IMG/VR virus record: IMGVR_UViG_2541047759_000001
Strand: one strand, 5' to 3'
Source of the DNA: a virus
Taxonomy: Duplodnaviria > Heunggongvirae > Uroviricota > Caudoviricetes
DNA length: 64,000 bases
This document shows positions 8,275-61,469 of this stretch, in pieces. The notes under the pieces were generated by a model. That model was not told where the DNA came from, searched no databases, and saw only the letters and a list, made by a program, of their open reading frames with translations. The translations under genes were made by a program, and so were the position numbers. Within the stretch, counting starts at the first letter, position 1. Each line of letters opens with the position of its first letter.

Positions 8275-8697
8275 GTGGCAAAAGTTTTTACACAAGAAGA
8301 GCGGGAAAAAATTAAAGGACAGGTTCTTGAACTCGTACGCCAGAGTGGGCGCGAGACGTTACGACAACTGGAAGCTAAAACTGGGGCAACAAGATATCTG
8401 ATGAGCGTTCTGGCCAGAGAGCTGGTTGCCAGTGGCGATGTATACAATTCTGGCTACGGGTTATTCCCGTCTGAACAGGCTCGTAAAGACTGGCAAAATG
8501 CCCGCAAAAAATTATCGAGGGCAAAGCTGAAGAAACCGGTTGTGGTTGATCCGGACCTTATCTGGTCGTTACCTGACGGAGAAATACGTCGCTACGACAG
8601 TCGCCTAAACATAATCTGTCGCGAGTGCCGGAAGAGTGAAGCTATGCAGCGTGTACTGGCTTTCTATCAGGGTAATTTTCAGGAGGCGGTACTGTGA
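8275..8697 (+). CDS. Hypothetical protein (replication-region)
   Basis: 140-aa ORF following the initiator; no signature recognised. Confidence 0.45.
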   Translation: MAKVFTQEEREKIKGQVLELVRQSGRETLRQLEAKTGATRYLMSVLARELVASGDVYNSGYGLFPSEQARKDWQNARKKLSRAKLKKPVVVDPDLIWSLPDGEIRRYDSRLNIICRECRKSEAMQRVLAFYQGNFQEAVL

Positions 8698-53163: not shown

Positions 53164-54450
53164 ATGAATACTGGATATTCTCCCGAACAAGGGCGGGGCT
53201 TCGTTCGTCCTGAAAAACAGAATCTGCAAAATTTTGCCGAAATTATTCCGGTTATTTCCGGCCTTACTGGCGGGAGTGAAACCAATATTGTTAACGCCAG
53301 AGCGTTGCAGATGTTTGATGATAAAAAGGGAGTAAATTTAACTTACACCCCTGACGGCAATCAGAATATGAGCATTATCTCTGAGTCAGGTTTCTACAAA
53401 CTAATAAAAACAAAAAGCGCCCCGTTGCCGGAGCGCCTTTGTGAACAATTAACCTACTGCGCAAAAAATGAATCTGAGCAGTGGGATTATATCAACCATG
53501 TGGAGAAGCGCCACAATTGCCGAATAACGGGCAAAACAAAGGCCACCCGCTACGGTGGCCCCTCGACACAAGCTACACGTTATCCCCAACGCATGAGCAT
53601 TGCCAACAATGCCACATTTGCGGCTGGTGGGCAATGCAATCAGTCAGGTTCAGTTCGTTGCCATACCTGCAATGAGCGCTTTTCCCTGTACTCTTTAAGG
53701 AATTGCTCAAGGGCAAAAGCACATGGCGCGAATCTTTCTGATTCATGCTCTATCTTTCTGCGCCGTCTTTTCCGTGCCGGTGATAATGTTTTGGTCAATT
53801 CTTTATCGGTCATTGTGTTGTCCTGCATAGCAATGCGCCGTAGTTACTCACACCACGGCGCTGGTGATGGTTACTCCTGCTCTTTGGCCTTGCGGCGCTG
53901 GCGGCGTTTGATCTCGCCTTGCATTGACGCAATGATGAATTGTGATGTGCTTTCGCCTGATTCTTTCACTGATTCCATGGCGTTTACTATTTCGTGTGGT
54001 ACACGAGCCTTTAGAGCTTGTGATTTTGCGTTTGTTGTACCCGTTGCCATTTCTATTCCTCTGTTGGATTGGTGGGGGACAGTATACACAGAAAAAGCAC
54101 AAATAAAACCCTTGACGTGGGCCACACCTAAAGCATATAGTGGGCCACACCTTGAGATTATCAAGGTGCATAAATGCAAAGCCCCGCAAGTGTCGTTACC
54201 ACTCGCAGGGCTTCTAACCACCAACGATAGCGAAAGTATCGAGGTAGCTATGTTAAATCATACCACACACCCGCAAGGGCGGGACTCGCACAACCTGAAT
54301 AAATACATCTGGCGTTTTATCGCCCTGAGCACGGCACAACCGCGCGTGATTACCATTGAGGCCACCAGCGAACAGGAAGCACGCCAGCAATCTCCGGCTG
54401 GCTGCGTGATGGTATTTGCTGCCCGTATTCGTCAGGGGGTAGGCTTATGA
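53164..54450 (+). CDS. Long ORF of doubtful reality (428 codons); only the last 66 codons (54250..54450) look like a coupled small gene
   Basis: Open frame without stop, but the middle is Cys/Arg/Ser-rich, spans a promoter/operator region and is antisense to a well-formed RHH gene. Confidence 0.2.
   Translation: MNTGYSPEQGRGFVRPEKQNLQNFAEIIPVISGLTGGSETNIVNARALQMFDDKKGVNLTYTPDGNQNMSIISESGFYKLIKTKSAPLPERLCEQLTYCAKNESEQWDYINHVEKRHNCRITGKTKATRYGGPSTQATRYPQRMSIANNATFAAGGQCNQSGSVRCHTCNERFSLYSLRNCSRAKAHGANLSDSCSIFLRRLFRAGDNVLVNSLSVIVLSCIAMRRSYSHHGAGDGYSCSLALRRWRRLISPCIDAMMNCDVLSPDSFTDSMAFTISCGTRAFRACDFAFVVPVAISIPLLDWWGTVYTEKAQIKPLTWATPKAYSGPHLEIIKVHKCKAPQVSLPLAGLLTTNDSESIEVAMLNHTTHPQGRDSHNLNKYIWRFIALSTAQPRVITIEATSEQEARQQSPAGCVMVFAARIRQGVGL
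53871..54050 (-). CDS. Ribbon-helix-helix (Arc/CopG-like) DNA-binding protein, candidate island repressor
   Basis: MATGTTNAKSQALKARVPHEIVNAMESVKESGESTSQFIIASMQGEIKRRQRRKAKEQE; AGAGGA RBS; divergent from a promoter with operator repeats. Confidence 0.5.
   Translation of the reverse strand: MATGTTNAKSQALKARVPHEIVNAMESVKESGESTSQFIIASMQGEIKRRQRRKAKEQE
54112..54151 (+). promoter_or_regulatory. Rightward promoter (TTGACG ... TATAGT) overlapped by two GTGGGCCACACC operator repeats
   Basis: -35 at 54112-54117, -10 at 54136-54141; GTGGGCCACACC at 54117-54128 and 54140-54151. Confidence 0.45.
54250..54450 (+). CDS. Small hypothetical protein, first gene of the rightward island operon
   Basis: ATG 54250 with GAGG RBS; 66 aa; stop overlaps next start (ATGA). 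Confidence 0.45.
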   Translation: MLNHTTHPQGRDSHNLNKYIWRFIALSTAQPRVITIEATSEQEARQQSPAGCVMVFAARIRQGVGL

Positions 54451-54677
54451 GCCAGGAAATCACACTACAACAGGCAGCAGAACGCGCCCACCAAATCGAA
54501 GTTATTTGCGCACTGGCAGAGGATTACCCTGGCATGATGACCGACAGCGAATCAGGGGCAATCATCGGCTTACTTAAACGCCTTAGCGGTGAGGTCTGCG
54601 TATTCCTGAGCGATGAACAGGAAAGAAGAACGCTTATTTCTAACGAAAAAAAATGCGGAGGGGTACATGTGCAATAA
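54447..54677 (+). CDS. Hypothetical protein
   Basis: 76 aa, translationally coupled. Confidence 0.45.
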   Translation: MSQEITLQQAAERAHQIEVICALAEDYPGMMTDSESGAIIGLLKRLSGEVCVFLSDEQERRTLISNEKKCGGVHVQ

Positions 54678-55101
54678 AACCACACCGGACGCAGCCGCCG
54701 CCGCACTCACTACGCTGATGCACGCGCTTATTGATATTGAATGCACGGCAGAGCTTGCGCAGGGAGAAGAACAGAAAGACCGGACACAGTTCGCCCTGGA
54801 ATGTATCCGATACATCGCAACGCGGTCGCTGAATGACGCTAAAAATATTCTTGTTGCTGATTGTGAAAATGGGGGGGTTATGCGTGATGATCGTTTTAAT
54901 TCCCTGAAACAGGAATTTTCCGGCGTTCCTGATGATGCGGCTGATGCGCTTTCGTCAATGCCAGAGCTTATTAGAGCGGATTTTTTCTTACTTTCCACGA
55001 GAGAATATAAATCAACGGGGCTTGATGTACTGAATATCGCCGCCGATTATGCTGATTTCGTGACAGAGGTTATTTTAAGAAAAACGACGGACGGGGATTA
55101 A
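54667..55101 (+). CDS. Hypothetical protein
   Basis: ATG 54667 with GGAGGGG RBS; 144 aa. Confidence 0.45.
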   Translation: MCNKTTPDAAAAALTTLMHALIDIECTAELAQGEEQKDRTQFALECIRYIATRSLNDAKNILVADCENGGVMRDDRFNSLKQEFSGVPDDAADALSSMPELIRADFFLLSTREYKSTGLDVLNIAADYADFVTEVILRKTTDGD

Positions 55102-55102
55102 T

Positions 55103-55336
55103 ATGCGTGATATTTACCACGAAACAATAGACCGCGCATTTCTTGCACTTTCTCACAGTGAAAATATGTTGGAAATATTGCGCATATGTCTTGAAACGCT
55201 TGGAGATAATGAACGTGATAAACAGAAATCAAGGATTGTCACGGCATTAATAACGCTTCTTGAGCCTGTAATAAATGAGTTGCAGGAAATAGAGACATTA
55301 CACGACCAGTATAAAGCGCCCCACACCGGAGAATAA
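55103..55336 (+). CDS. Hypothetical protein
   Basis: 77 aa. Confidence 0.4.
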   Translation: MRDIYHETIDRAFLALSHSENMLEILRICLETLGDNERDKQKSRIVTALITLLEPVINELQEIETLHDQYKAPHTGE

Positions 55337-55341
55337 AAATA

Positions 55342-55641
55342 ATGAAACTTAAATATTCTGGCTTAACTGCCAGTGGCAAAACTCGCACTAAATTCATGCG
55401 CGGTGATATTTACCGCGATAAGTACGGCGGCACGGTAATGATTAAGGGCGTGGAGGAACGGCGCGTAACCTACCGTCGTGAAGGCTACGAATATGATTGC
55501 GTGATGCCTGTTTATCAGTTCGACCGTGATTTTTCTCTTGTGCAGGCCGTACCGCGTAACGTGCCCACCAGCAGGGAGAAAGCACGCGCCAATATTCAGA
55601 AGATGAAAACCATGATTAAAGGATTCAGGGGTAAAAAATGA
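55342..55641 (+). CDS. Hypothetical protein
   Basis: 99 aa, overlaps primase start. Confidence 0.4.
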   Translation: MKLKYSGLTASGKTRTKFMRGDIYRDKYGGTVMIKGVEERRVTYRREGYEYDCVMPVYQFDRDFSLVQAVPRNVPTSREKARANIQKMKTMIKGFRGKK

Positions 55642-57392
55642 AACTGGCACCGAACGTAAAACAGCAGTCACGCGGCATAAAACACAAAGGAACAGAAGTC
55701 ATTATTTTTGCGGGTAGTGATGCCTGGGCACACGCGAAACAATGGCAGGAACATGATGCGCGTATGGCCGGAGATAATGAGCCTCCTGTGTGGCTTGGGG
55801 AGCAGCAGTTATCAGAACTGGATAAGCTGCAAATTGTGCCGGAAGGCAGAAAATCCGTGCGCATATTCAGGGCCGGATATCTTGCGCCAGTAATGATAAA
55901 GGCGATTGGCCAGAAGCTGGCGGCGGCAGGCGTACAGGATGCAAATTTTTACCCTGATGGTATGCACGGTCAGAAGGTGGAGAACTGGCGCGAATATCTG
56001 GCCCGTGAGCGCCAGAATCTTTCTGATGGTCTGGTCATTGAGCTTCCGGTAAAGCAAAAGGCGCAACTTTCGCAGATGGCGGACAGTGAGCGCGCGCAGC
56101 TGCTTGCCGATCGCTTTGATGGCGTTTGCGTACATCCTGAAAGTGAAATCGTTCACGTATGGCGCGGCGGGGTATGGTGTCCGGTCAGCACAATGGAACT
56201 TAGCCGCGAAATGGTGGCGATCTATTCAGAGCACAGGGCCACTTTCAGCAAGCGCGTAATCAATAACGCCGTGGAAGCGTTAAAAGTTATTGCCGAACCA
56301 ATGGGCGAGCCGTCCGGCGATTTGCTGCCGTTCGCCAATGGTGCGCTTGACCTGAAAACGGGGGGATTTTCCCCGCACACGCCGGAGAACTGGATCACCA
56401 CGCACAACGGCATTGAGTACACGCCACCAGCACCAGGGGAGAACATCCGCGATAACGCGCCAAACTTTCATAAATGGCTTGAGCACGCAGCCGGAAAAGA
56501 CCCGCGCAAGATGATGCGTATATGTGCCGCGCTGTACATGATTATGGCGAACCGGTACGACTGGCAGATGTTTATTGAGGCCACCGGAGACGGCGGGAGC
56601 GGTAAAAGTACATTCACGCACATAGCCAGCCTTCTGGCAGGGAAACAGAACACGGTAAGCGCTGAAATGACATCGCTTGATGATGCTGGTGGACGTGCGC
56701 AGGTTGTCGGGAGTCGTCTTATCGTCCTGGCTGACCAGCCGAAATATACAGGCGAAGGAACGGGCATCAAGAAAATCACGGGCGGTGACCCCGTGGAAAT
56801 TAACCCGAAATACGAAAAGCGTTTCACGGCTGTAATCAGGGCGGTGGTGCTGGCGACCAACAATAACCCGATGATATTCACCGAACGGGCCGGAGGTGTG
56901 GCACGTCGTCGCGTGATTTTCCGTTTCGACAATATCGTCAGTGAGGCCGAAAAAGACAGGGAGCTACCGGAAAAGATCGCGGCTGAAATCCCTGTCATTA
57001 TCCGCCGATTGCTGGCGAACTTTACCGACCCTGAGAAGGCACGGGCTTTACTACTGGAACAGCGTGACGGTGATGAAGCACTGGCAATAAAGCAACAGAC
57101 GGATCCGGTTATTGAGTTTTGCCAGTTCCTGAATTTTCTGGAGGAAGCGCGCGGCCTGATGATGGGGGGCGGTGGCGATTCAGTGAAGTACACGACCAGG
57201 AACAGCCTTTACCGCGTCTATCTGGCGTTTATGGCATACGCAGGCAGGAGCAAACCGCTAAACGTAAATGACTTTGGAAAGGCTATGAAGCCTGCCGCAA
57301 AAGTTTACGGACATGAATATATTACGCGGAAAGTTAAGGGGGTAACGCAGACTAACGCAATAACAACAGACGAGTGCGACGCGTTTTTATAA
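55638..57392 (+). CDS. Primase/replication protein, P4-type D5-like NTPase (pri-rep)
   Basis: 584 aa; Walker A GDGGSGKST; D5-N-like region upstream; followed directly by iterons. Confidence 0.8.
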   Translation: MKLAPNVKQQSRGIKHKGTEVIIFAGSDAWAHAKQWQEHDARMAGDNEPPVWLGEQQLSELDKLQIVPEGRKSVRIFRAGYLAPVMIKAIGQKLAAAGVQDANFYPDGMHGQKVENWREYLARERQNLSDGLVIELPVKQKAQLSQMADSERAQLLADRFDGVCVHPESEIVHVWRGGVWCPVSTMELSREMVAIYSEHRATFSKRVINNAVEALKVIAEPMGEPSGDLLPFANGALDLKTGGFSPHTPENWITTHNGIEYTPPAPGENIRDNAPNFHKWLEHAAGKDPRKMMRICAALYMIMANRYDWQMFIEATGDGGSGKSTFTHIASLLAGKQNTVSAEMTSLDDAGGRAQVVGSRLIVLADQPKYTGEGTGIKKITGGDPVEINPKYEKRFTAVIRAVVLATNNNPMIFTERAGGVARRRVIFRFDNIVSEAEKDRELPEKIAAEIPVIIRRLLANFTDPEKARALLLEQRDGDEALAIKQQTDPVIEFCQFLNFLEEARGLMMGGGGDSVKYTTRNSLYRVYLAFMAYAGRSKPLNVNDFGKAMKPAAKVYGHEYITRKVKGVTQTNAITTDECDAFL

Positions 57393-57404
57393 TTTTTTGT
57401 AATT

Positions 57405-57640
57405 GCTGTCTACCCTGTCTACCTGAGTAAAGAAAAATACATTTAATTCAGTGCATTAAGTTAGGTAGATAGCCTTTTTTTACTGTCTACCCACTATCTA
57501 CCCTCTCTACCTGATTTTACCTGAATCAGACAGGGAGGTAGACACGGGGTAGATAGTGGATAAAAGCACTCTACCCCGCTGAAAGCCGCGCCATTACTGG
57601 CATGAGGGCCACTAAGGTAGATAAGGTAGACAAGGGGAGG
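57405..57640. repeat. Island replication origin: GGTAGA/TCTACC iterons
   Basis: At least ten copies of TCTACC or its complement in both orientations, immediately after the primase stop. Confidence 0.6.
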
Positions 57641-57680
57641 CACAACTCAAAACTTTTTAAACGAGGGGGTAAAAATAAAT

Positions 57681-57959
57681 ATGCACACTTCAGGGAAATT
57701 TAATAAATCACTCAAAAAACGCAGAGACAGAACAGAACCGAAATATCGCGCGTTAGACATGACAGAGCACGCTTTAAAGGTGGCAATCAGAACGATAGAC
57801 CGCCACGCGGGGGAAGGATACGCGAAAGCACATCCCGAACTGATAAGCGCATTCATGACCACGACGGCGGCAAATTTTGCCACGCTGACAGAGCGGGAGA
57901 TTGCCGAAGCGGAACAGGTAACAACCATCAACGTTAAAACCGGAGAGGTGGAATCATGA
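57681..57959 (+). CDS. Hypothetical protein
   Basis: ATG 57681 with GAGGGGG RBS; 92 aa. Confidence 0.45.
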   Translation: MHTSGKFNKSLKKRRDRTEPKYRALDMTEHALKVAIRTIDRHAGEGYAKAHPELISAFMTTTAANFATLTEREIAEAEQVTTINVKTGEVES

Positions 57960-58378
57960 CAGCACAGATAGCAGCTTACGGGCGGCTGGTGGACGACCCG
58001 CAGGTAAAACAGACCAGCAAGGGCACACCGATGACGCTGGCGCGTATGGCGGTCCCCCTTCCGTGCAGCCAGGCAGATGACGGAACGGCGACGATGTGGT
58101 TATCCGTCCTGGCATTTGGCAGACAGGCCGAAGCACTGGAAAGGCACCGCAAGGGTGAACTCCTGAGCGTGGCGGGTAACATGCAGATCAGCCAGTGGAC
58201 TGGGCAGAACGGAGAAACGCGGCAGGGCTGGCAGGTTATCGCAGACAGTGTAATCAGTGCGCGAACGGCGCGACTGGGCGGCAAAAAAGGTCAACAGGGC
58301 CAGGCTACTGACGCGCTGAACAGGGCAAAACAACAGGCGGGGAATGATGATCCGTACGGGGATAACATACCGTTTTAA
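57956..58378 (+). CDS. ssb: Single-stranded DNA-binding protein-like (OB fold, acidic C-terminal tail)
   Basis: ...AYGRLVDDPQVKQTSKG... OB-like N-region and C-terminal ...DDPYGDNIPF resembling the SSB DDDIPF tail. Confidence 0.65.
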   Translation: MTAQIAAYGRLVDDPQVKQTSKGTPMTLARMAVPLPCSQADDGTATMWLSVLAFGRQAEALERHRKGELLSVAGNMQISQWTGQNGETRQGWQVIADSVISARTARLGGKKGQQGQATDALNRAKQQAGNDDPYGDNIPF

Positions 58379-58393
58379 GCGACGAGAGACAGA

Positions 58394-58418
58394 AGCCGGA
58401 GCAATCCGGCTTTTTTAC
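58394..58418 (+). terminator. Intrinsic terminator after ssb
   Basis: gccggagcaatccggc + tttttt. Confidence 0.6.
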
Positions 58419-58793
58419 GGGGCCTCCTGGCGGGGTGGGCCTGAACACGGGGCGGGAAGCGCGGAAAAAAGCGCATTTTTGTGATTTTATCGTCATCATC
58501 ATCATGAGCGTAATTTATTGTTTTTAATTGTTTTGATGCAAAAAAGATGATGGTTGTGGTTAATTTTTGTTCGACATCTTTGCAGGCAGATAAAAAAGCC
58601 CGATAAGGTCAGAGGTGGCTTATCGGGCTTTTGCATATGAGGCTTTTTGGTGCACTGACACACATGATCGGGATAATCATTTCATAATTTGCAACACAAC
58701 TCAATATCATTGCACAAAATGCAATCCTGATTATAATCAGAGCTGGATGAACATCCAGTTATGATTTTTTAAGTCAAAGAGGAATTTCTTACT

Positions 58794-59000
58794 ATGGCTG
58801 AAGAGAAAAAAGGCGGTATTTCGGTGTACATAAGCCCCGACATCGTGAAGGCGCTCAAGGAACGCCACCAGCAGAACGTAAAAGCAGGCATTGCGGCAGG
58901 ACTTGATCCGCTGGCGATGGTTGAGCCGTCAACAGGCTGGCAGGTACGCGCCTATTTACGCGCGGCGCTGGGTATGAATCAGGTTCACGGGGGTGAATAA
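58794..59000 (+). CDS. Small protein upstream of capsid gene (possible RHH fold)
   Basis: 68 aa; ISVYISPDIVKALKERH resembles an RHH strand-helix start; stop overlaps capsid ATG. Confidence 0.45.
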   Translation: MAEEKKGGISVYISPDIVKALKERHQQNVKAGIAAGLDPLAMVEPSTGWQVRAYLRAALGMNQVHGGE

Positions 59001-60055
59001 TGACAGTAAAAGCAATGGCACTTAACACTAACCAGCTTTTTGCGTACCTGAATCGCGGGGATATTGCGGAATTTAAATTCAGTCCGCTGTTTACCACGCT
59101 GTTTTTCCCGAACGTGGCGACATTCAGCACGCAAAACATCATGCTGGATACCCTGGACATTGAAGAAGTCACCATGTCGGCGTTTTGTTCGCCTATGGTG
59201 GGTAGCCAGGTTCAGCGCGATAAAGGGTACGAAACCAGCACGATTAAACCTGGCTACATGAAGCCAAAGCACGAAATCGATCCAACGAAAACCATCATGC
59301 GCATGGCTGGAGAAGATCCGGCACAGCTTAACGACCCTACCTATCGCCGTATGCGCCTGATTACTGGCAATATGCGCCGCCAGATAAACGCCATAAAAGC
59401 GCGCGTGGAATGGCTGGCGGTAAATGCGGTAACGACCGGAAAAAACATCATTGAAGGCGAAGGCATAGAGCGCTATGAAATCGACTGGAAGATACCGGAA
59501 AAAAACATCATAGAGCAGGCCGACGGGAAAAAATGGTCAGAGCAGGACAAAGAAACCCACGATCCAATCTATGATATCGAACTATACGCCGATCAGGCTG
59601 GTTGCCCCGCAAACGTCATGATTATGGGCGCTGAGGTATGGCGAACGTTACGCAGCTTTAAAAAATTCCGTGAGCTGTACGATCTTTCCCGTGGTTCAGA
59701 GTCCGCCGCAGAGCTGGCCTGTAAAAACCTGGGCGAAGTGGTGAGCTTTAAAGGCTATCTGGGCGATATTGCCCTTATCGTCTATTCCGGCAAATACACT
59801 GACAGCGACGGCACAGAAAAATATTTCCTTGAGCCTGATTTGCTTGTCCTGGGCAACACCAACAATAAAGGGCTGGTGGCCTATGGTGCGATTATGGATC
59901 AGGACGCAGTAAGAACGGGCGCAACGCAAAACATGTTTTACCCGAAAAACTGGATTGAGGACGGCGATCCGGCGATTGAGTACGTGCAGACGCACAGCGC
60001 ACCGCAGCCGGTTCCGGCAGATATTCGCAAATTTGTTACCGTCAAAATTGGTTAA
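59000..60055 (+). CDS. Satellite-encoded major capsid protein, divergent paralog of prophage gpE
   Basis: Collinear with ORF 28232..29260; shared blocks GEDPAQLNDP.YRR.R.IT, NIIEQADGKKWSEQD, VVSFKGY.GD.A. Confidence 0.85.
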   Translation: MTVKAMALNTNQLFAYLNRGDIAEFKFSPLFTTLFFPNVATFSTQNIMLDTLDIEEVTMSAFCSPMVGSQVQRDKGYETSTIKPGYMKPKHEIDPTKTIMRMAGEDPAQLNDPTYRRMRLITGNMRRQINAIKARVEWLAVNAVTTGKNIIEGEGIERYEIDWKIPEKNIIEQADGKKWSEQDKETHDPIYDIELYADQAGCPANVMIMGAEVWRTLRSFKKFRELYDLSRGSESAAELACKNLGEVVSFKGYLGDIALIVYSGKYTDSDGTEKYFLEPDLLVLGNTNNKGLVAYGAIMDQDAVRTGATQNMFYPKNWIEDGDPAIEYVQTHSAPQPVPADIRKFVTVKIG

Positions 60056-60066
60056 CGGGGGATTCT

Positions 60067-60402
60067 ATGGACACTCCATACATTGAGTTATTTGCAGGCA
60101 GTCAGCAGGTCGCCACGACGCTGGTACATTTTGCCGCTGATGCTGGCGTTATTCAGGAATTTACCCCGCTGATGCTGGCGGACAATGGCGAGTTTAAGCC
60201 GTGGGATGGTAAGGAATCTGGCAAGGCTGTTTATCTGACCTCGTACCCTGTGGACACGTCAAAGCAGAAATCAGCACAGTGTTACAAGACGGGGATATTC
60301 AATATTGCCGCCGTTAACTGGCCTGAGAGCGTCGACACCGATGCGAAAAAATGCGCCGCCTTTGCGGGTTCCGGCGTATCCGTTCAGCCGCTGGCCCGAT
60401 AA
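60067..60402 (+). CDS. Satellite-encoded head decoration protein, divergent paralog of prophage gpD
   Basis: Shares TPLML, WDG and WPESVD..KK..AF.GS blocks with ORF 27827..28174. Confidence 0.7.
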   Translation: MDTPYIELFAGSQQVATTLVHFAADAGVIQEFTPLMLADNGEFKPWDGKESGKAVYLTSYPVDTSKQKSAQCYKTGIFNIAAVNWPESVDTDAKKCAAFAGSGVSVQPLAR

Positions 60403-60414
60403 GCAGGGGGAACG

Positions 60415-60828
60415 ATGGCAACGAATGAAAGCATCATGACGCTACCGCTGGCGAGTAAATTTAAAGCCGAAGCGCGGGCAATGGCTGACAGAGGTTTATC
60501 AACCTATGAGGCCGTATATCAACTAAACAAACTGGAAGAGCAGGACAAGCCGCGCGCTGATGCGATTATGGCGCTTCATGAGCATAAAGACTATCAGCCG
60601 CTGTTACGTGCAATGGCAAACGTGCCATGTATTAGCGTCGATAATGCTCGTGAAATCCTGAACATGACCATAGAGCAGGAGCGCCCAAAGGTTGCACCAG
60701 AGCTTACCGCAGCCTTTGAAAACTTTATGGACATGCACAGCCCGCAAGCCGTATCAGCTGGCATGGCATACGATGGCAGAAACCAGGGCGATGACGGCGA
60801 CATCGATCGCATACTGAAAACCATCTGA
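60415..60828 (+). CDS. Satellite-encoded scaffold-like protein (Nu3-like, resembles C-terminal part of prophage gpC)
   Basis: C-terminus ...AAFENFMDMHSPQAV... parallels ...ALFEHFMANHSPAAV... at the end of ORF 26285..27790. Confidence 0.65.
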   Translation: MATNESIMTLPLASKFKAEARAMADRGLSTYEAVYQLNKLEEQDKPRADAIMALHEHKDYQPLLRAMANVPCISVDNAREILNMTIEQERPKVAPELTAAFENFMDMHSPQAVSAGMAYDGRNQGDDGDIDRILKTI

Positions 60829-60833
60829 GACAA

Positions 60834-60858
60834 GGCCGGAGAAATCCGGCTTTTTTAC
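60834..60858 (+). terminator. Intrinsic terminator after capsid module (near-copy of the 58394 terminator)
   Basis: ggccggagaaatccggc + tttttt. Confidence 0.6.
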
Positions 60859-60861
60859 GGG

Positions 60862-60925
60862 TCCTTCCTGGAATTATGGCCCGTTACGGGGCGGCGACCT
60901 CGCGGGTTTTCGCTATTTATGACGT
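60862..60925 (+). other. Island cos site copy 1: lambda-type cosN, cohesive end GGGCGGCGACCT at 60889-60900, direct orientation
   Basis: ccgttacGGGGCGGCGACCTcgcgggttttcgctatttatga, near-identical to prophage 21905-21945; downstream sequence diverges. Confidence 0.75.
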
Positions 60926-60989
60926 TTTTCCGTGAAGGTGACACCACCACCACTTGATTAATATTTAACCATGCAGTTAAGGTAACATT

Positions 60990-61424
60990 ATGATTGATAA
61001 AGCTTGTTTTGTAAGTCAGCAGGAAATAGCTGAACATTTCAAGGTTAACAGAACCACTATTCGCGCATGGACCAAACAGGGGATGCCGTATCTTAATGCG
61101 GATCGCGGAAAGTCTGGCGGTTATCACATCGGGCATACATTGCTTTGGTCTTCAGGTAAAAGCCGTCTTGAGGCCATCAGATATCACGTAGAAACCAGTG
61201 CGCTGGAAAAAATTATGTTTGCCAGGCTGCTTTCATCTGAGCGTGACGAGTACTCCAGTGAAGAAACAGAACATCGATTTGATGAAGGTTTGCAGATTTA
61301 CGGCTATTCACCGGAAGATGTGAGCAAGGCACGAAATAAAATGGCTGGCTTTCTGGCTGGGTGGCGTCATGCCGTAAGCGTTCGCCGTGCCAGCATGGAG
61401 CAATCAGCCGATACAGAACAGTAA
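60990..61424 (+). CDS. Terminase small-subunit-like protein with Nu1-type N-terminal HTH and unrelated C-terminus
   Basis: ...QQEIAEHFKVNRTTIRAWTKQGMPYLNADRGKSGG... parallels the recalled lambda Nu1 N-terminus (..LADIFGASIRTIQNWQEQGMPVLRGGGKG..); C-terminus lacks the gpA-interacting motif seen in the prophage Nu1. Confidence 0.6.
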   Translation: MIDKACFVSQQEIAEHFKVNRTTIRAWTKQGMPYLNADRGKSGGYHIGHTLLWSSGKSRLEAIRYHVETSALEKIMFARLLSSERDEYSSEETEHRFDEGLQIYGYSPEDVSKARNKMAGFLAGWRHAVSVRRASMEQSADTEQ

Positions 61425-61469
61425 AGCCGATAACTTGTTAATCACTCGCAGCAATGCATGTGATTTGTG

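What the first reader, a model, noticed from the sequence alone, without database searches (positions are those of the whole stretch)
53164..54450. 428-codon open frame that is probably not a single real protein
The frame stays open for 1287 nt, yet its central portion is Cys/Arg/Ser-rich, runs antisense through the RHH gene and crosses the promoter/operator region. Only the N-terminal ~150 codons and the last 66 codons (own RBS at ~54243) look gene-like. It could be a degraded cargo gene, or a chance open frame preserved by the opposite-strand gene. Regions between alpA and the replication genes in such islands are a plausible place for accessory cargo, so it deserves a check.
Basis: inference. 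Interest (0 to 1): 0.4.

Follow-up and report, generated by a model that had tools for sequence, protein, structure and literature searches.

The report
Conserved read-through frame ending in Icd
The 428-codon frame is not a chance artefact. It is kept open in related satellite islands across several genera while most of its amino-acid sequence drifts freely, much like the nested eta/kil genes of phage P4, where translating the long frame lets transcription read through an immunity region.

Summary
The ORF at 53164-54450 (+) exists as described and is identical to the one in the model satellite EcCICFT073. Its last 66 codons are a genuine Icd/Kil-family gene with its own ribosome-binding site. 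Its middle runs antisense through two real minus-strand genes, a ribbon-helix-helix YlcI/YnfO protein and a 57-aa protein. It also crosses their terminators, a Chi site and a promoter/operator region.

AlphaFold pLDDT is below 50 for residues 1-380, and segments 53413-53639 and 54051-54249 show no codon periodicity and no low dN/dS in any frame.

The frame is not open by chance, though. I sampled 49 non-redundant loci using only the Icd gene as anchor. Of these, 43 carry a long plus-strand ORF in frame with Icd, 5 carry one in another frame, and 1 has none. Other frames average 11-15 stops per 250 codons. The nested loci include Rahnella, Cedecea and Intestinirhabdus.

The best precedent is P4 eta/kil. 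P4 Kil belongs to the same Icd-like family, is nested in frame in eta, and eta translation prevents termination. Here a protein-repressor operon replaces the CI RNA, so I rate it a new variant of a known kind. The mechanism is inferred, not shown.

The parts
52923..53111 (+). alpA, the activator gene of Gram-negative PICIs. It lies upstream of the long ORF in the same orientation.
   Evidence: Pfam Phage_AlpA, E = 3e-17. PGAP annotates it as WP_000953274.1 in ZH063 and CFT073. Its activator role is reported in PMC6092414.
53164..54450 (+). The 428-codon open frame, here called eta-like. It begins 52 nt after alpA and shares frame and stop codon with the nested Icd-like gene.
   Evidence: It has 0 mismatches to CFT073. 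The frame is kept open in 43 of 49 non-redundant relatives.
53164..53412 (+). N-terminal Bro-network remnant. It is chimeric and lacks the end of the Bro-N domain.
   Evidence: BLASTP gives 61% identity over aa 42-97 to the BRO-N protein of L002. Pfam Bro-N scores 17.1 bits, below the 25.6 cut-off, and covers profile positions 36-85 of 96. PHROGs give anti-repressor hits with E = 1e-5 to 1e-3. dN/dS in the + frame is 0.32, from one pair only.
53413..53440 (-). Intrinsic terminator for leftward transcription (12-pair stem followed by a T-run). In the + frame it reads as 'KTKSAPLPER'.
   Evidence: Terminator scan. The same element recurs in relatives.
53533..53560 (-). Second minus-strand terminator: stem GGCCACC/GGTGGCC at 53541-53560 with its T-tract at 53533-53540. 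In the + frame it reads as 'KTKATRYGG'. In many relatives the long ORF's SD and ATG sit immediately upstream of it.
   Evidence: The stem changes in a compensatory way across loci (GGCGACC/GGTCGCC, GGCCACC/GGTGGCC, GGCGGCC/GGCCGCC).
53623..53630 (+). Chi site GCTGGTGG. It accounts for the invariant 'AAGGQ' motif in the translated frame.
   Evidence: A + strand Chi lies upstream of icd in 44 of 49 loci. The invariant alignment columns are A153-Q157.
53640..53813 (-). Conserved 57-aa minus-strand gene of unknown function with an Arg-rich N-terminus.
   Evidence: PGAP WP_000130015.1. phrog_21027, E = 1e-15. It is intact at 52-98% identity in relatives. dN/dS is 0.25 in its own frame.
53871..54050 (-). 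YlcI/YnfO-family ribbon-helix-helix protein, 59 aa. It is the candidate repressor of the divergent promoter region.
54112..54161 (+). Predicted rightward promoter (TTGACG at 54112-54117, TATAGT at 54136-54141), overlapped by two 22-nt direct repeats with core GTGGGCCACACCT at 54117 and 54140. These repeats are candidate operators. The whole region lies inside the long ORF.
   Evidence: These are consensus and repeat matches only and are not experimentally mapped.
54179..54213 (+). 14-bp inverted repeat (hairpin) in the icd leader.
   Evidence: Relatives give sub-threshold SymR-like hits on the minus strand at the equivalent place.
54250..54450 (+). Icd/Kil-family gene of 66 aa, nested in frame at the 3' end of the long ORF, with its own SD (GAGG at 54241-54244). 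Its stop overlaps the next gene's ATG (ATGA at 54447-54450).
   Evidence: NF033153, 69.9 bits. dN/dS is 0.18. The P4 Kil portion of Eta hits the same model at 73.1 bits. Sequence.
54447..57393 (+). Downstream operon running to the primase. Its genes overlap or abut one another, with gaps of 5 nt or less.
   Evidence: PGAP coordinates of ZH063 mapped onto the window and the ORF list.

Best explanation
The 428-codon frame is the EcCICFT073-type counterpart of phage P4's eta gene, with the Icd-like gene nested in frame at its 3' end as kil is nested in eta.

What is shown:
- The frame is kept free of stop codons across the whole leftward repressor unit (two terminators, a 57-aa gene and the RHH gene), the divergent promoter/operator region and icd.
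- This holds in most related islands, including other genera.
- The amino-acid sequence of the stretches that overlap no gene evolves without constraint.
- The conserved peptide motifs in the middle are explained by DNA or RNA features: terminators, a Chi site, the antisense genes and the operators.

What is inferred:
- In the resting island, the RHH protein represses the internal rightward promoter. Icd and the replication genes are then off, or only the short 66-aa Icd is made from that promoter.
- On induction, the helper phage switches on alpA and AlpA activates its own promoter. Transcripts run rightward from alpA.
- Ribosomes translating the long frame follow the polymerase across about 1.1 kb that would otherwise be untranslated antisense RNA.
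- This prevents premature (probably Rho-dependent) termination and carries transcription past the repressed promoter.
- Because the long frame shares icd's stop codon, which overlaps the next start (ATGA), translation then passes directly into the tightly packed replication operon.

On this view what is selected is the act of translation, not the long polypeptide. In this island the frame happens to be fused to a remnant of a Bro-type gene, which is why it is 428 codons long.
For: Conservation of the open frame:
- Icd-anchored sampling gave 80 IMG/VR loci and 11 cross-genus loci.
- Most have 240-411 open codons upstream of icd in its frame.
- 28 of 49 non-redundant loci have no stops in the 250 upstream codons, against 11-15 in other frames.
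- 43 of 49 loci are nested in frame, 5 have a long + ORF ending 5-139 nt before icd or overlapping it in another frame, and 1 has none.
- Stop-creating variants are absent from this frame: 1 of 522 against 61 of 978.

No amino-acid constraint in the middle: and AlphaFold2 pLDDT below 50 for residues 1-380.

Start sites in relatives:
- Many start with a good SD followed by ATG ('GGGGGA..ATG MTHKTKAT'), placed exactly at the far end of the leftward unit.
- Others overlap the upstream gene's end, by 4 nt in L092 and by 17 nt in L088.

P4 precedent:
- The eta ORF is 214 aa and combines Ash (PF10554) with an Icd-like domain (NF033153, 73 bits), which is Kil.
- The CI RNA and seqA lie inside eta.
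- PMC10111431 summarises Forti et al. 1999: the constitutive promoter is internal to eta, Kil is a truncated in-frame form, eta is coupled to the alpA homologue, and eta translation prevents termination.

Biology of this island:
- AlpA is an auto-activating activator induced by the helper phage.
- A reporter fused to ORF3, downstream of alpA, depends on AlpA (PMC6092414).
- The downstream genes form a continuous chain of overlapping or abutting ORFs.
Against: - There is no expression, ribosome-occupancy or termination data, so the mechanism rests on analogy with P4.
- In this window the ORF's ATG has only a weak SD and sits 52 nt after alpA rather than overlapping it. The true start codon is unknown.
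- The internal promoter and the operators are consensus or repeat matches only.
- The defining P4 RNA elements (C4/CI, isrK/seqA) and the Ash domain are absent here. Whatever terminates untranslated transcripts must therefore differ from P4.
- About 10% of non-redundant loci have lost in-frame continuity and one has no long ORF, so the feature is not indispensable.
- Many sampled loci share recombining modules, so the counts are not phylogenetically independent.
- A C-over-G stretch near 53540-53620 is only a weak hint of a Rho loading site.
Confidence: 0.55

Rival explanations
1. The frame is open by chance, or only as a by-product of the opposite-strand genes.
For: Both minus-strand genes share third codon positions with the + frame. 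That is the antisense phase in which stops are most easily avoided. In random sequence, one such ORF per genome is not impossible.
Against: 43 of 49 non-redundant loci, including other genera, keep a long ORF in frame with icd. The minus-strand genes cover only about 120 of the roughly 290 codons. The gene-free segments 53413-53639 and 53814-53870 show 0 stop variants out of 159 in this frame, against 24 of 308 in the other + frames (p = 6e-5). Loci with an unrelated minus-strand gene are open too.
Confidence: 0.04
2. It encodes a genuine multi-domain protein of the Bro network (Bro-like N-terminus, linker, Icd domain), and the amino-acid sequence of the whole product matters. For example, it could be a regulated long isoform of the cell-division inhibitor.
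For: NCBI names many 361-571-aa homologues 'Icd-like protein'. Some carry a complete Bro-N or an Ash domain at the N-terminus. Mageeney et al. treat P4 eta as a Bro-network gene. In-frame nesting is strongly preferred, 43 of 48. The N-terminal segment has dN/dS of 0.32.
Against: The central segments have no codon periodicity, and their dN/dS is no different from that of the other frames. The conserved motifs map to terminators, a Chi site and the antisense genes. pLDDT is below 50 for residues 1-380. The N-terminal module is interchangeable or absent among relatives. Here Bro-N scores below threshold and is truncated.
Confidence: 0.15
3. Translation of the frame is selected for a purpose other than preventing termination. 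One option is to shield the plus-strand RNA from pairing with the convergent repressor transcript and from RNase III cleavage. Another is to dislodge the RHH repressor or interfere with leftward transcription. A third is to occlude the internal icd start so that the toxic short Icd is not made from read-through transcripts.
For: The ORF spans exactly the leftward transcription unit, from its terminator to its promoter. The frame shares icd's frame and stop. Relatives give possible antisense-RNA signals near the icd start.
Against: There is no direct evidence for any of these options. The one studied precedent, P4 eta, acts on termination. The five loci whose long ORF stops before icd argue against a strict need to occlude the icd start.
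Confidence: 0.2
4. It is a degraded cargo gene: a Bro-type gene that lost its 3' end and became fused, in this lineage only, to downstream sequence.
For: The N-terminal 83 codons are a truncated, chimeric Bro-like module. Relatives such as L002 carry a separate, intact 192-aa BRO-N gene at this position.
Against: This explains only the first 250 nt. The open frame from the terminator to icd exists independently of any Bro module, for example in ORFs starting 'MTHKTKAT'.
Confidence: 0.06

Closest known systems
Phage P4 nested genes eta/kil in the immunity region (Forti et al. 1999, J Bacteriol 181:5225, as summarised in PMC10111431)
   Same: - A long ORF lies downstream of the alpA/vis homologue in the same orientation.
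- A small cell-killing or division-inhibitor gene of the same NCBIfam family (NF033153) is nested in frame at its 3' end and shares its stop codon.
- The promoter for the short form lies inside the long ORF.
- The immunity determinants also lie inside the long ORF.
- A replication operon ending in a primase lies downstream.
   Different: - In P4 the immunity elements are same-strand RNAs (CI/C4 and seqA/isrK), and the translated region forms the Pfam Ash domain.
- Here no C4, isrK or Ash match is found.
- Instead the long ORF runs antisense through a protein-coding leftward unit (an RHH protein and a 57-aa protein) with its own terminators.
- The ORF is twice as long: 428 codons against 214.
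- In this window the ATG is 52 nt from alpA rather than overlapping it.
- The two ORFs show no significant pairwise similarity outside the Icd part.
Phage P1 immI operon (c4 RNA, icd, ant). This comparison rests on my own knowledge of the system.
   Same: It has an Icd-family division inhibitor at the head of an operon controlled by an immunity element placed just upstream.
   Different: P1 uses the c4 antisense RNA. No long upstream in-frame ORF is known to me there, and no C4 match is found in this window.
Bro-network (Bro-N/KilA-N/Ash/ANT) 'Bro zone' genes of Gram-negative PICIs (Mageeney et al. 2023, PMC10111431)
   Same: The position matches, between the integration zone (int, alpA) and the replication zone. 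The N-terminus is Bro-like and modules are swapped among relatives. That study merged annotations sharing a stop codon with Bro proteins, which suggests such long ORFs were counted as Bro genes.
   Different: Bro-N is below threshold and truncated here. I did not find that paper's text mentioning the antisense repressor genes inside the ORF or the lack of amino-acid constraint.
Divergent repressor/early-promoter switches of temperate phages and Gram-positive PICIs (Stl/Rpr)
   Same: A small DNA-binding repressor gene is transcribed away from the replication operon, with repeats over the rightward promoter.
   Different: Those systems have no long ORF overlying the repressor gene. [quoted passage not shown]

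Membership tests
P4 eta/kil-type nested read-through ORF | A small Kil/Icd-family gene is nested in the same frame at the 3' end of the long ORF and shares its stop codon. | tested here: met
   The last 66 codons score 69.9 bits on NF033153. P4 Eta residues 161-208 score 73.1 bits on the same model. The same frame and stop are shown.
P4 eta/kil-type nested read-through ORF | [quoted passage not shown] | tested here: inconclusive
   Orientation and order are met. In the window the gap is 52 nt and the SD is weak. Relatives show overlap with the upstream gene (L092 by 4 nt, L088 by 17 nt) or a strong SD.
P4 eta/kil-type nested read-through ORF | The promoter of the short form and the immunity determinants lie inside the long ORF. 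| tested here: inconclusive
   A promoter-like site at 54112-54141 with overlapping repeats lies inside the ORF. This is prediction only, with no transcript mapping.
P4 eta/kil-type nested read-through ORF | CI RNA (Rfam C4) and seqA (isrK / c4-a1b1) lie inside the ORF, whose translation forms the Ash domain (PF10554). | tested here: not met
   No Rfam hit at E <= 1 in 51000-58000 other than two weak miRNA-model matches. No PF10554 hit. As a positive control, P4 gives C4 at 74.9 bits, isrK at 60.8 bits and Ash at 82 bits.
P4 eta/kil-type nested read-through ORF | Translation of the long ORF suppresses premature transcription termination. | not testable with these tools
   This needs stop-codon mutants, reporter or RNA-seq assays and Rho inhibition.
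Bro-N domain proteins (PF02498) | The Bro-N profile matches at or above the gathering score over the whole domain. | tested here: not met
   17.1 bits against 25.6, covering profile positions 36-85 of 96 only.
Icd-like host cell division inhibitor (NF033153) | The profile matches above the curated cut-off. | tested here: met
   69.9 bits against 25 for 54250-54447. The inhibitory activity itself was not tested.
YlcI/YnfO family, ribbon-helix-helix fold (the antisense gene) | The NF041551 profile matches and the fold is beta-alpha-alpha RHH. | tested here: met
Gram-negative PICI (EcCICFT073 type) | int, alpA, replication (primase) and packaging genes lie in one orientation, and the element is identical to the described one. 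| tested here: met
   The protein accessions are the same as in CFT073. The ORF has 0 mismatches and the 9.2-kb alignment is 97.6% identical.

The most novel reading that the evidence does not exclude
Across Enterobacterales satellites, selection keeps a roughly 0.7-1.3-kb frame translatable but not meaningful. This 'ribosome bridge' would run antisense over an entire protein-repressor operon and let AlpA-driven transcription bypass a ribbon-helix-helix immunity switch. That would also identify the missing resident repressor of Gram-negative PICIs (the YlcI/YnfO RHH protein). It would further mean that hundreds of database 'Icd-like' and 'Ash' proteins are translated regulatory DNA rather than functional polypeptides.
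Probability: 0.4. Interest if true: 0.65.

Novelty: new variant of a known kind. Interest (0 to 1): 0.5.

Why it matters
EcCICFT073 is the model Gram-negative phage-inducible island, and its regulatory region is poorly understood. The 2018 study found the AlpA activator but no repressor. This analysis makes four contributions.
- It gives a concrete, testable layout: an RHH gene with operator-like repeats, an internal promoter, and a long frame that may carry induced transcription across them.
- It offers a clean comparative example of selection for translation itself rather than for a protein product.
- It links PICIs mechanistically to P4, although the two were described as sharing only three distant homologues.
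- It flags an annotation problem. The same locus is annotated either as a 66-aa gene or as a 425-aa 'Icd-like protein', and Pfam's Ash domain in P4 Eta overlaps the CI RNA gene.

Tried and rejected
- **Immunity RNA inside the ORF:** an Rfam scan of 51000-58000 at E <= 1 looked for a P4/P1-type C4, isrK or c4-a1b1 RNA. It found none, only two weak miRNA-model matches downstream of the primase.
- **tRNA-like elements:** a tRNA/tmRNA scan of nine related loci found none.
- **Pairwise comparison with P4 Eta:** BLASTP of the window ORF against P4 Eta gave only E = 0.2 in the Icd part. The link rests on the shared NCBIfam model instead.
- **The original P4 paper:** PMC94026 is not held, so I relied on the summary in PMC10111431.
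- **Literature searches:** I found no description of this arrangement in PICIs.
- **Opposite-strand genes as the sole cause:** I considered that the open frame simply mirrors the minus-strand genes. I rejected this as a full explanation because the gene-free segments also avoid stops.
- **A long structured or disordered protein:** rejected for the middle on the periodicity, dN/dS and AlphaFold2 results.
- **Rho loading site:** a C-over-G bias near 53540-53620 was noted, but it is too weak to count as evidence.
Full report
**1. The observation**

The window holds an ORF at 53164..54450 (+), 428 aa plus a stop. Over this span the + frame is free of stops, while each of the other five frames carries many.

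The surrounding island is int (51307-52557), alpA (52923-53111), this ORF, a string of small overlapping genes, and a primase (55638-57392). Further on come SSB, PerC and capsid genes.

The island is the EcCICFT073 type. CFT073 carries the same RefSeq protein accessions between roxA and phoQ. The 1287-nt ORF is identical to CFT073's, with 0 mismatches, and the flanking 9.2 kb is 97.6% identical.

PGAP annotates only three genes under the ORF, and nothing at all between 53112 and 53639:
- a 57-aa minus-strand gene at 53640-53813;
- a 59-aa YlcI/YnfO gene at 53871-54050 (-);
- a 66-aa 'host cell division inhibitor Icd-like protein' at 54250-54450 (+).

**2. Anatomy inside the frame**

- **Codons 1-83.** These are a chimeric, truncated Bro-type module. 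Residues 42-97 are 61% identical to a BRO-N protein. Pfam Bro-N reaches only 17 bits against a 25.6 cut-off and covers profile positions 36-85 of 96.
- **Two minus-strand terminators.** One is at 53413-53440. The other is a stem at 53541-53560 with its T-tract at 53533-53540. Across relatives this second stem changes in a compensatory way: GGCGACC/GGTCGCC, GGCCACC/GGTGGCC and GGCGGCC/GGCCGCC. The 'KTKSAP' and 'KTKAT' peptide motifs are these terminators read in the + frame.
- **The invariant 'AAGGQ'.** This is a Chi site, GCTGGTGG, at 53623. It is present upstream of icd in 44 of 49 loci.
- **The 57-aa minus-strand gene.** It is intact at 52-98% identity in relatives.
- **Between that gene and icd.** A promoter-like site, TTGACG-18-TATAGT, lies at 54112-54141. 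Two direct repeats, GTGGGCCACACCT, overlap it 23 bp apart. A 14-bp leader hairpin lies at 54179-54213.
- **The icd gene.** GAGG at 54241-54244 precedes the icd ATG. The icd stop overlaps the next gene's ATG.

**3. Is the open frame more than chance?**

A protein search found more than 100 full-length homologues. They are 361-571 aa long and 58-87% identical, and most are named 'Icd-like protein' by NCBI. That list is biased towards open frames.

To remove the bias I sampled loci using only the 66-aa Icd as anchor. This gave 80 IMG/VR loci and 11 loci from other species and genera.

- Most have 240-411 open codons upstream of icd in the icd frame.
- In 49 non-redundant loci, the 250 upstream codons have zero stops in 28. 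The mean is 2.7, against 14.3 and 15.3 in the other + frames and 12.9, 6.7 and 11.0 in the minus frames.
- Counting the longest + ORF across the region, 43 of 49 are in frame with icd. Five have a long ORF in another frame that ends 5-139 nt before icd or overlaps it. One has none.
- The nested set includes Rahnella, Cedecea, Intestinirhabdus, Superficieibacter, Rosenbergiella, Tenebrionibacter, Enterobacter and E. ruysiae.
- It also includes loci whose minus-strand repressor shows no sequence similarity to YlcI.

**4. Is it a protein?**

Variable sites by + codon position (1/2/3):

| Segment | Sites at positions 1/2/3 | Reading |
|---|---|---|
| 53413-53639 | 41/35/32 | no periodicity |
| 53814-53870 | 14/12/12 | no periodicity |
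| 54051-54249 | 51/49/46 | no periodicity |
| icd | 22/21/43 | periodic |
| anti-YlcI | 32/42/56 | periodic |
| anti-57-aa gene | 30/28/41 | periodic |

Six-frame dN/dS:

| Segment | Result |
|---|---|
| icd | 0.18 in its own frame |
| YlcI | 0.20 in its own frame; 0.32 in the + frame |
| 57-aa gene | 0.25 in its own frame; 0.45 in the + frame |
| 53413-53639 | 0.60-0.89 in every frame |
| 54051-54249 | 0.68-1.26 in every frame |

Stop-creating variants are nevertheless missing from this frame. In 53413-53639 the counts are 0 of 113, against 8 of 112 and 8 of 106 in the other + frames. Over 53413-54050 they are 1 of 522 against 61 of 978, Fisher p = 7e-11.

AlphaFold2 with 26 homologues gives pLDDT below 50 for residues 1-380 and about 70 only for the Icd domain.

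So the frame is kept translatable, but the sequence of its middle is not selected as protein.

**5. Start of the frame**

In many relatives the ORF starts with a good SD and ATG ('GGGGGA..ATG MTHKTKAT') placed exactly at the outer end of the leftward unit. In others it overlaps the end of the upstream gene, by 4 nt in L092 and by 17 nt in L088.

In this window, and in several relatives, the frame instead continues upstream into the Bro remnant. It begins at an ATG 52 nt after alpA with a weak SD. The true start here is unknown.

**6. What it most likely is**

Phage P4 has the same logic. Its eta ORF (214 aa) consists of the Ash domain plus an Icd-like domain. The latter is Kil and scores 73 bits on NF033153. 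The CI RNA and seqA lie inside eta.

As summarised in PMC10111431:
- the constitutive promoter is internal to eta;
- Kil is a truncated in-frame form of Eta;
- full-length Eta is made only from the upstream late promoter and is coupled to the alpA homologue;
- eta translation prevents termination, so late transcripts read through.

In EcCICFT073, AlpA is a helper-induced activator that activates its own promoter. A reporter fused downstream of alpA depends on AlpA. No resident repressor has been identified (PMC6092414).

I therefore propose the following.
- The RHH protein represses the internal promoter.
- After induction, transcripts from the alpA promoter are translated along the long frame.
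- This protects them from premature, probably Rho-dependent, termination.
- Translation is delivered through the shared stop/ATGA junction into the contiguous replication operon.

The conservation and the lack of amino-acid constraint are shown. The promoter, the operators, the repressor function and the anti-termination role are inferred.

**7. Differences from P4 and novelty**

The window has no C4, isrK or Ash match. In a 20-locus scan, only a P4-type locus (L086) and two tandem loci (L044, L082) carried C4 or isrK.

Here the long frame overlies an antisense protein-coding repressor operon rather than same-strand RNAs. I found no description of this in the held literature. Mageeney et al. 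probably counted such ORFs as Bro genes.

I rate it a new variant of a known kind.

**8. Caveats**

- The sampled loci exchange modules, so the counts are not independent events.
- About one locus in ten has lost in-frame continuity.
- No transcript or ribosome data were available.

Noticed in passing
window 53623-53630 (+) and 54362-54369 (-): Chi sites (GCTGGTGG) in opposite orientation flank the switch region. The + strand one is kept upstream of icd in 44 of 49 related loci and explains the invariant 'AAGGQ'. These loci carry about 7 Chi sites per 8 kb, several-fold above my recalled E. coli average. This may protect replicating island DNA from RecBCD.
   Followed up: partly
window 54179-54213; L089/L090/L092 3902-3973 (-): A 14-bp hairpin lies in the icd leader. 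At the equivalent place in three distant loci there are sub-threshold SymR-like Rfam hits on the minus strand (28.7-36.7 bits against a gathering score of 61). This hints at an antisense small RNA over the icd ribosome-binding site.
   Followed up: no
window 49958-64000; CFT073 NC_004431 1377930-1388654: The island next to roxA is the model PICI EcCICFT073, or a near-identical copy. Protein accessions are the same and the ORF is 100% identical. It carries capsid and head-decoration genes.
   Followed up: yes
window 53640-53813 (-): A small conserved gene (57 aa, phrog_21027) has an Arg-rich N-terminus (RKRRRRK) and a conserved ERFAPC-F-LE-FLKE core. It sits downstream of the RHH gene in the same leftward unit. 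Its function is unknown.
   Followed up: partly
L094 (phage P4) 8168-8812 (-): The Pfam Ash domain (PF10554) of P4 Eta covers the same DNA as the CI RNA (Rfam C4, 8420-8507) and seqA (isrK, 8615-8692). The 'Ash protein family' may therefore largely be a translation of RNA genes. PHROGs label Icd-like families 'transcriptional repressor', probably inherited from the old P4 'cI protein' annotation.
   Followed up: partly
L044 3048-3342; L082 1618-2032: Some islands carry two systems in tandem. An RHH-type switch with an Icd gene is followed by a C4 RNA (and in L082 also its c4-a1b1 target) and a second, divergent Icd-like gene (about 42% identity). Database proteins such as P0050 (554 aa) read through both.
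   Followed up: partly
window 52558-52922; L053, L083, L084, L092, L093: The int-alpA RNA motif (RF02996) is found between int and alpA in five related loci (45-63 bits). It is not detected in this window, even at E <= 1.
   Followed up: no
window 57479-57562: A long imperfect inverted repeat lies just downstream of the primase gene. It gave weak miRNA-model matches on both strands. It could be a terminator or part of a replication origin.
   Followed up: no
window 53112-53639: RefSeq (PGAP) leaves this 528-bp stretch unannotated in CFT073 and ZH063. In other E. coli genomes NCBI annotates the whole 425-430-aa frame as 'Icd-like protein'. The same locus is thus annotated in two incompatible ways.
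   Followed up: partly
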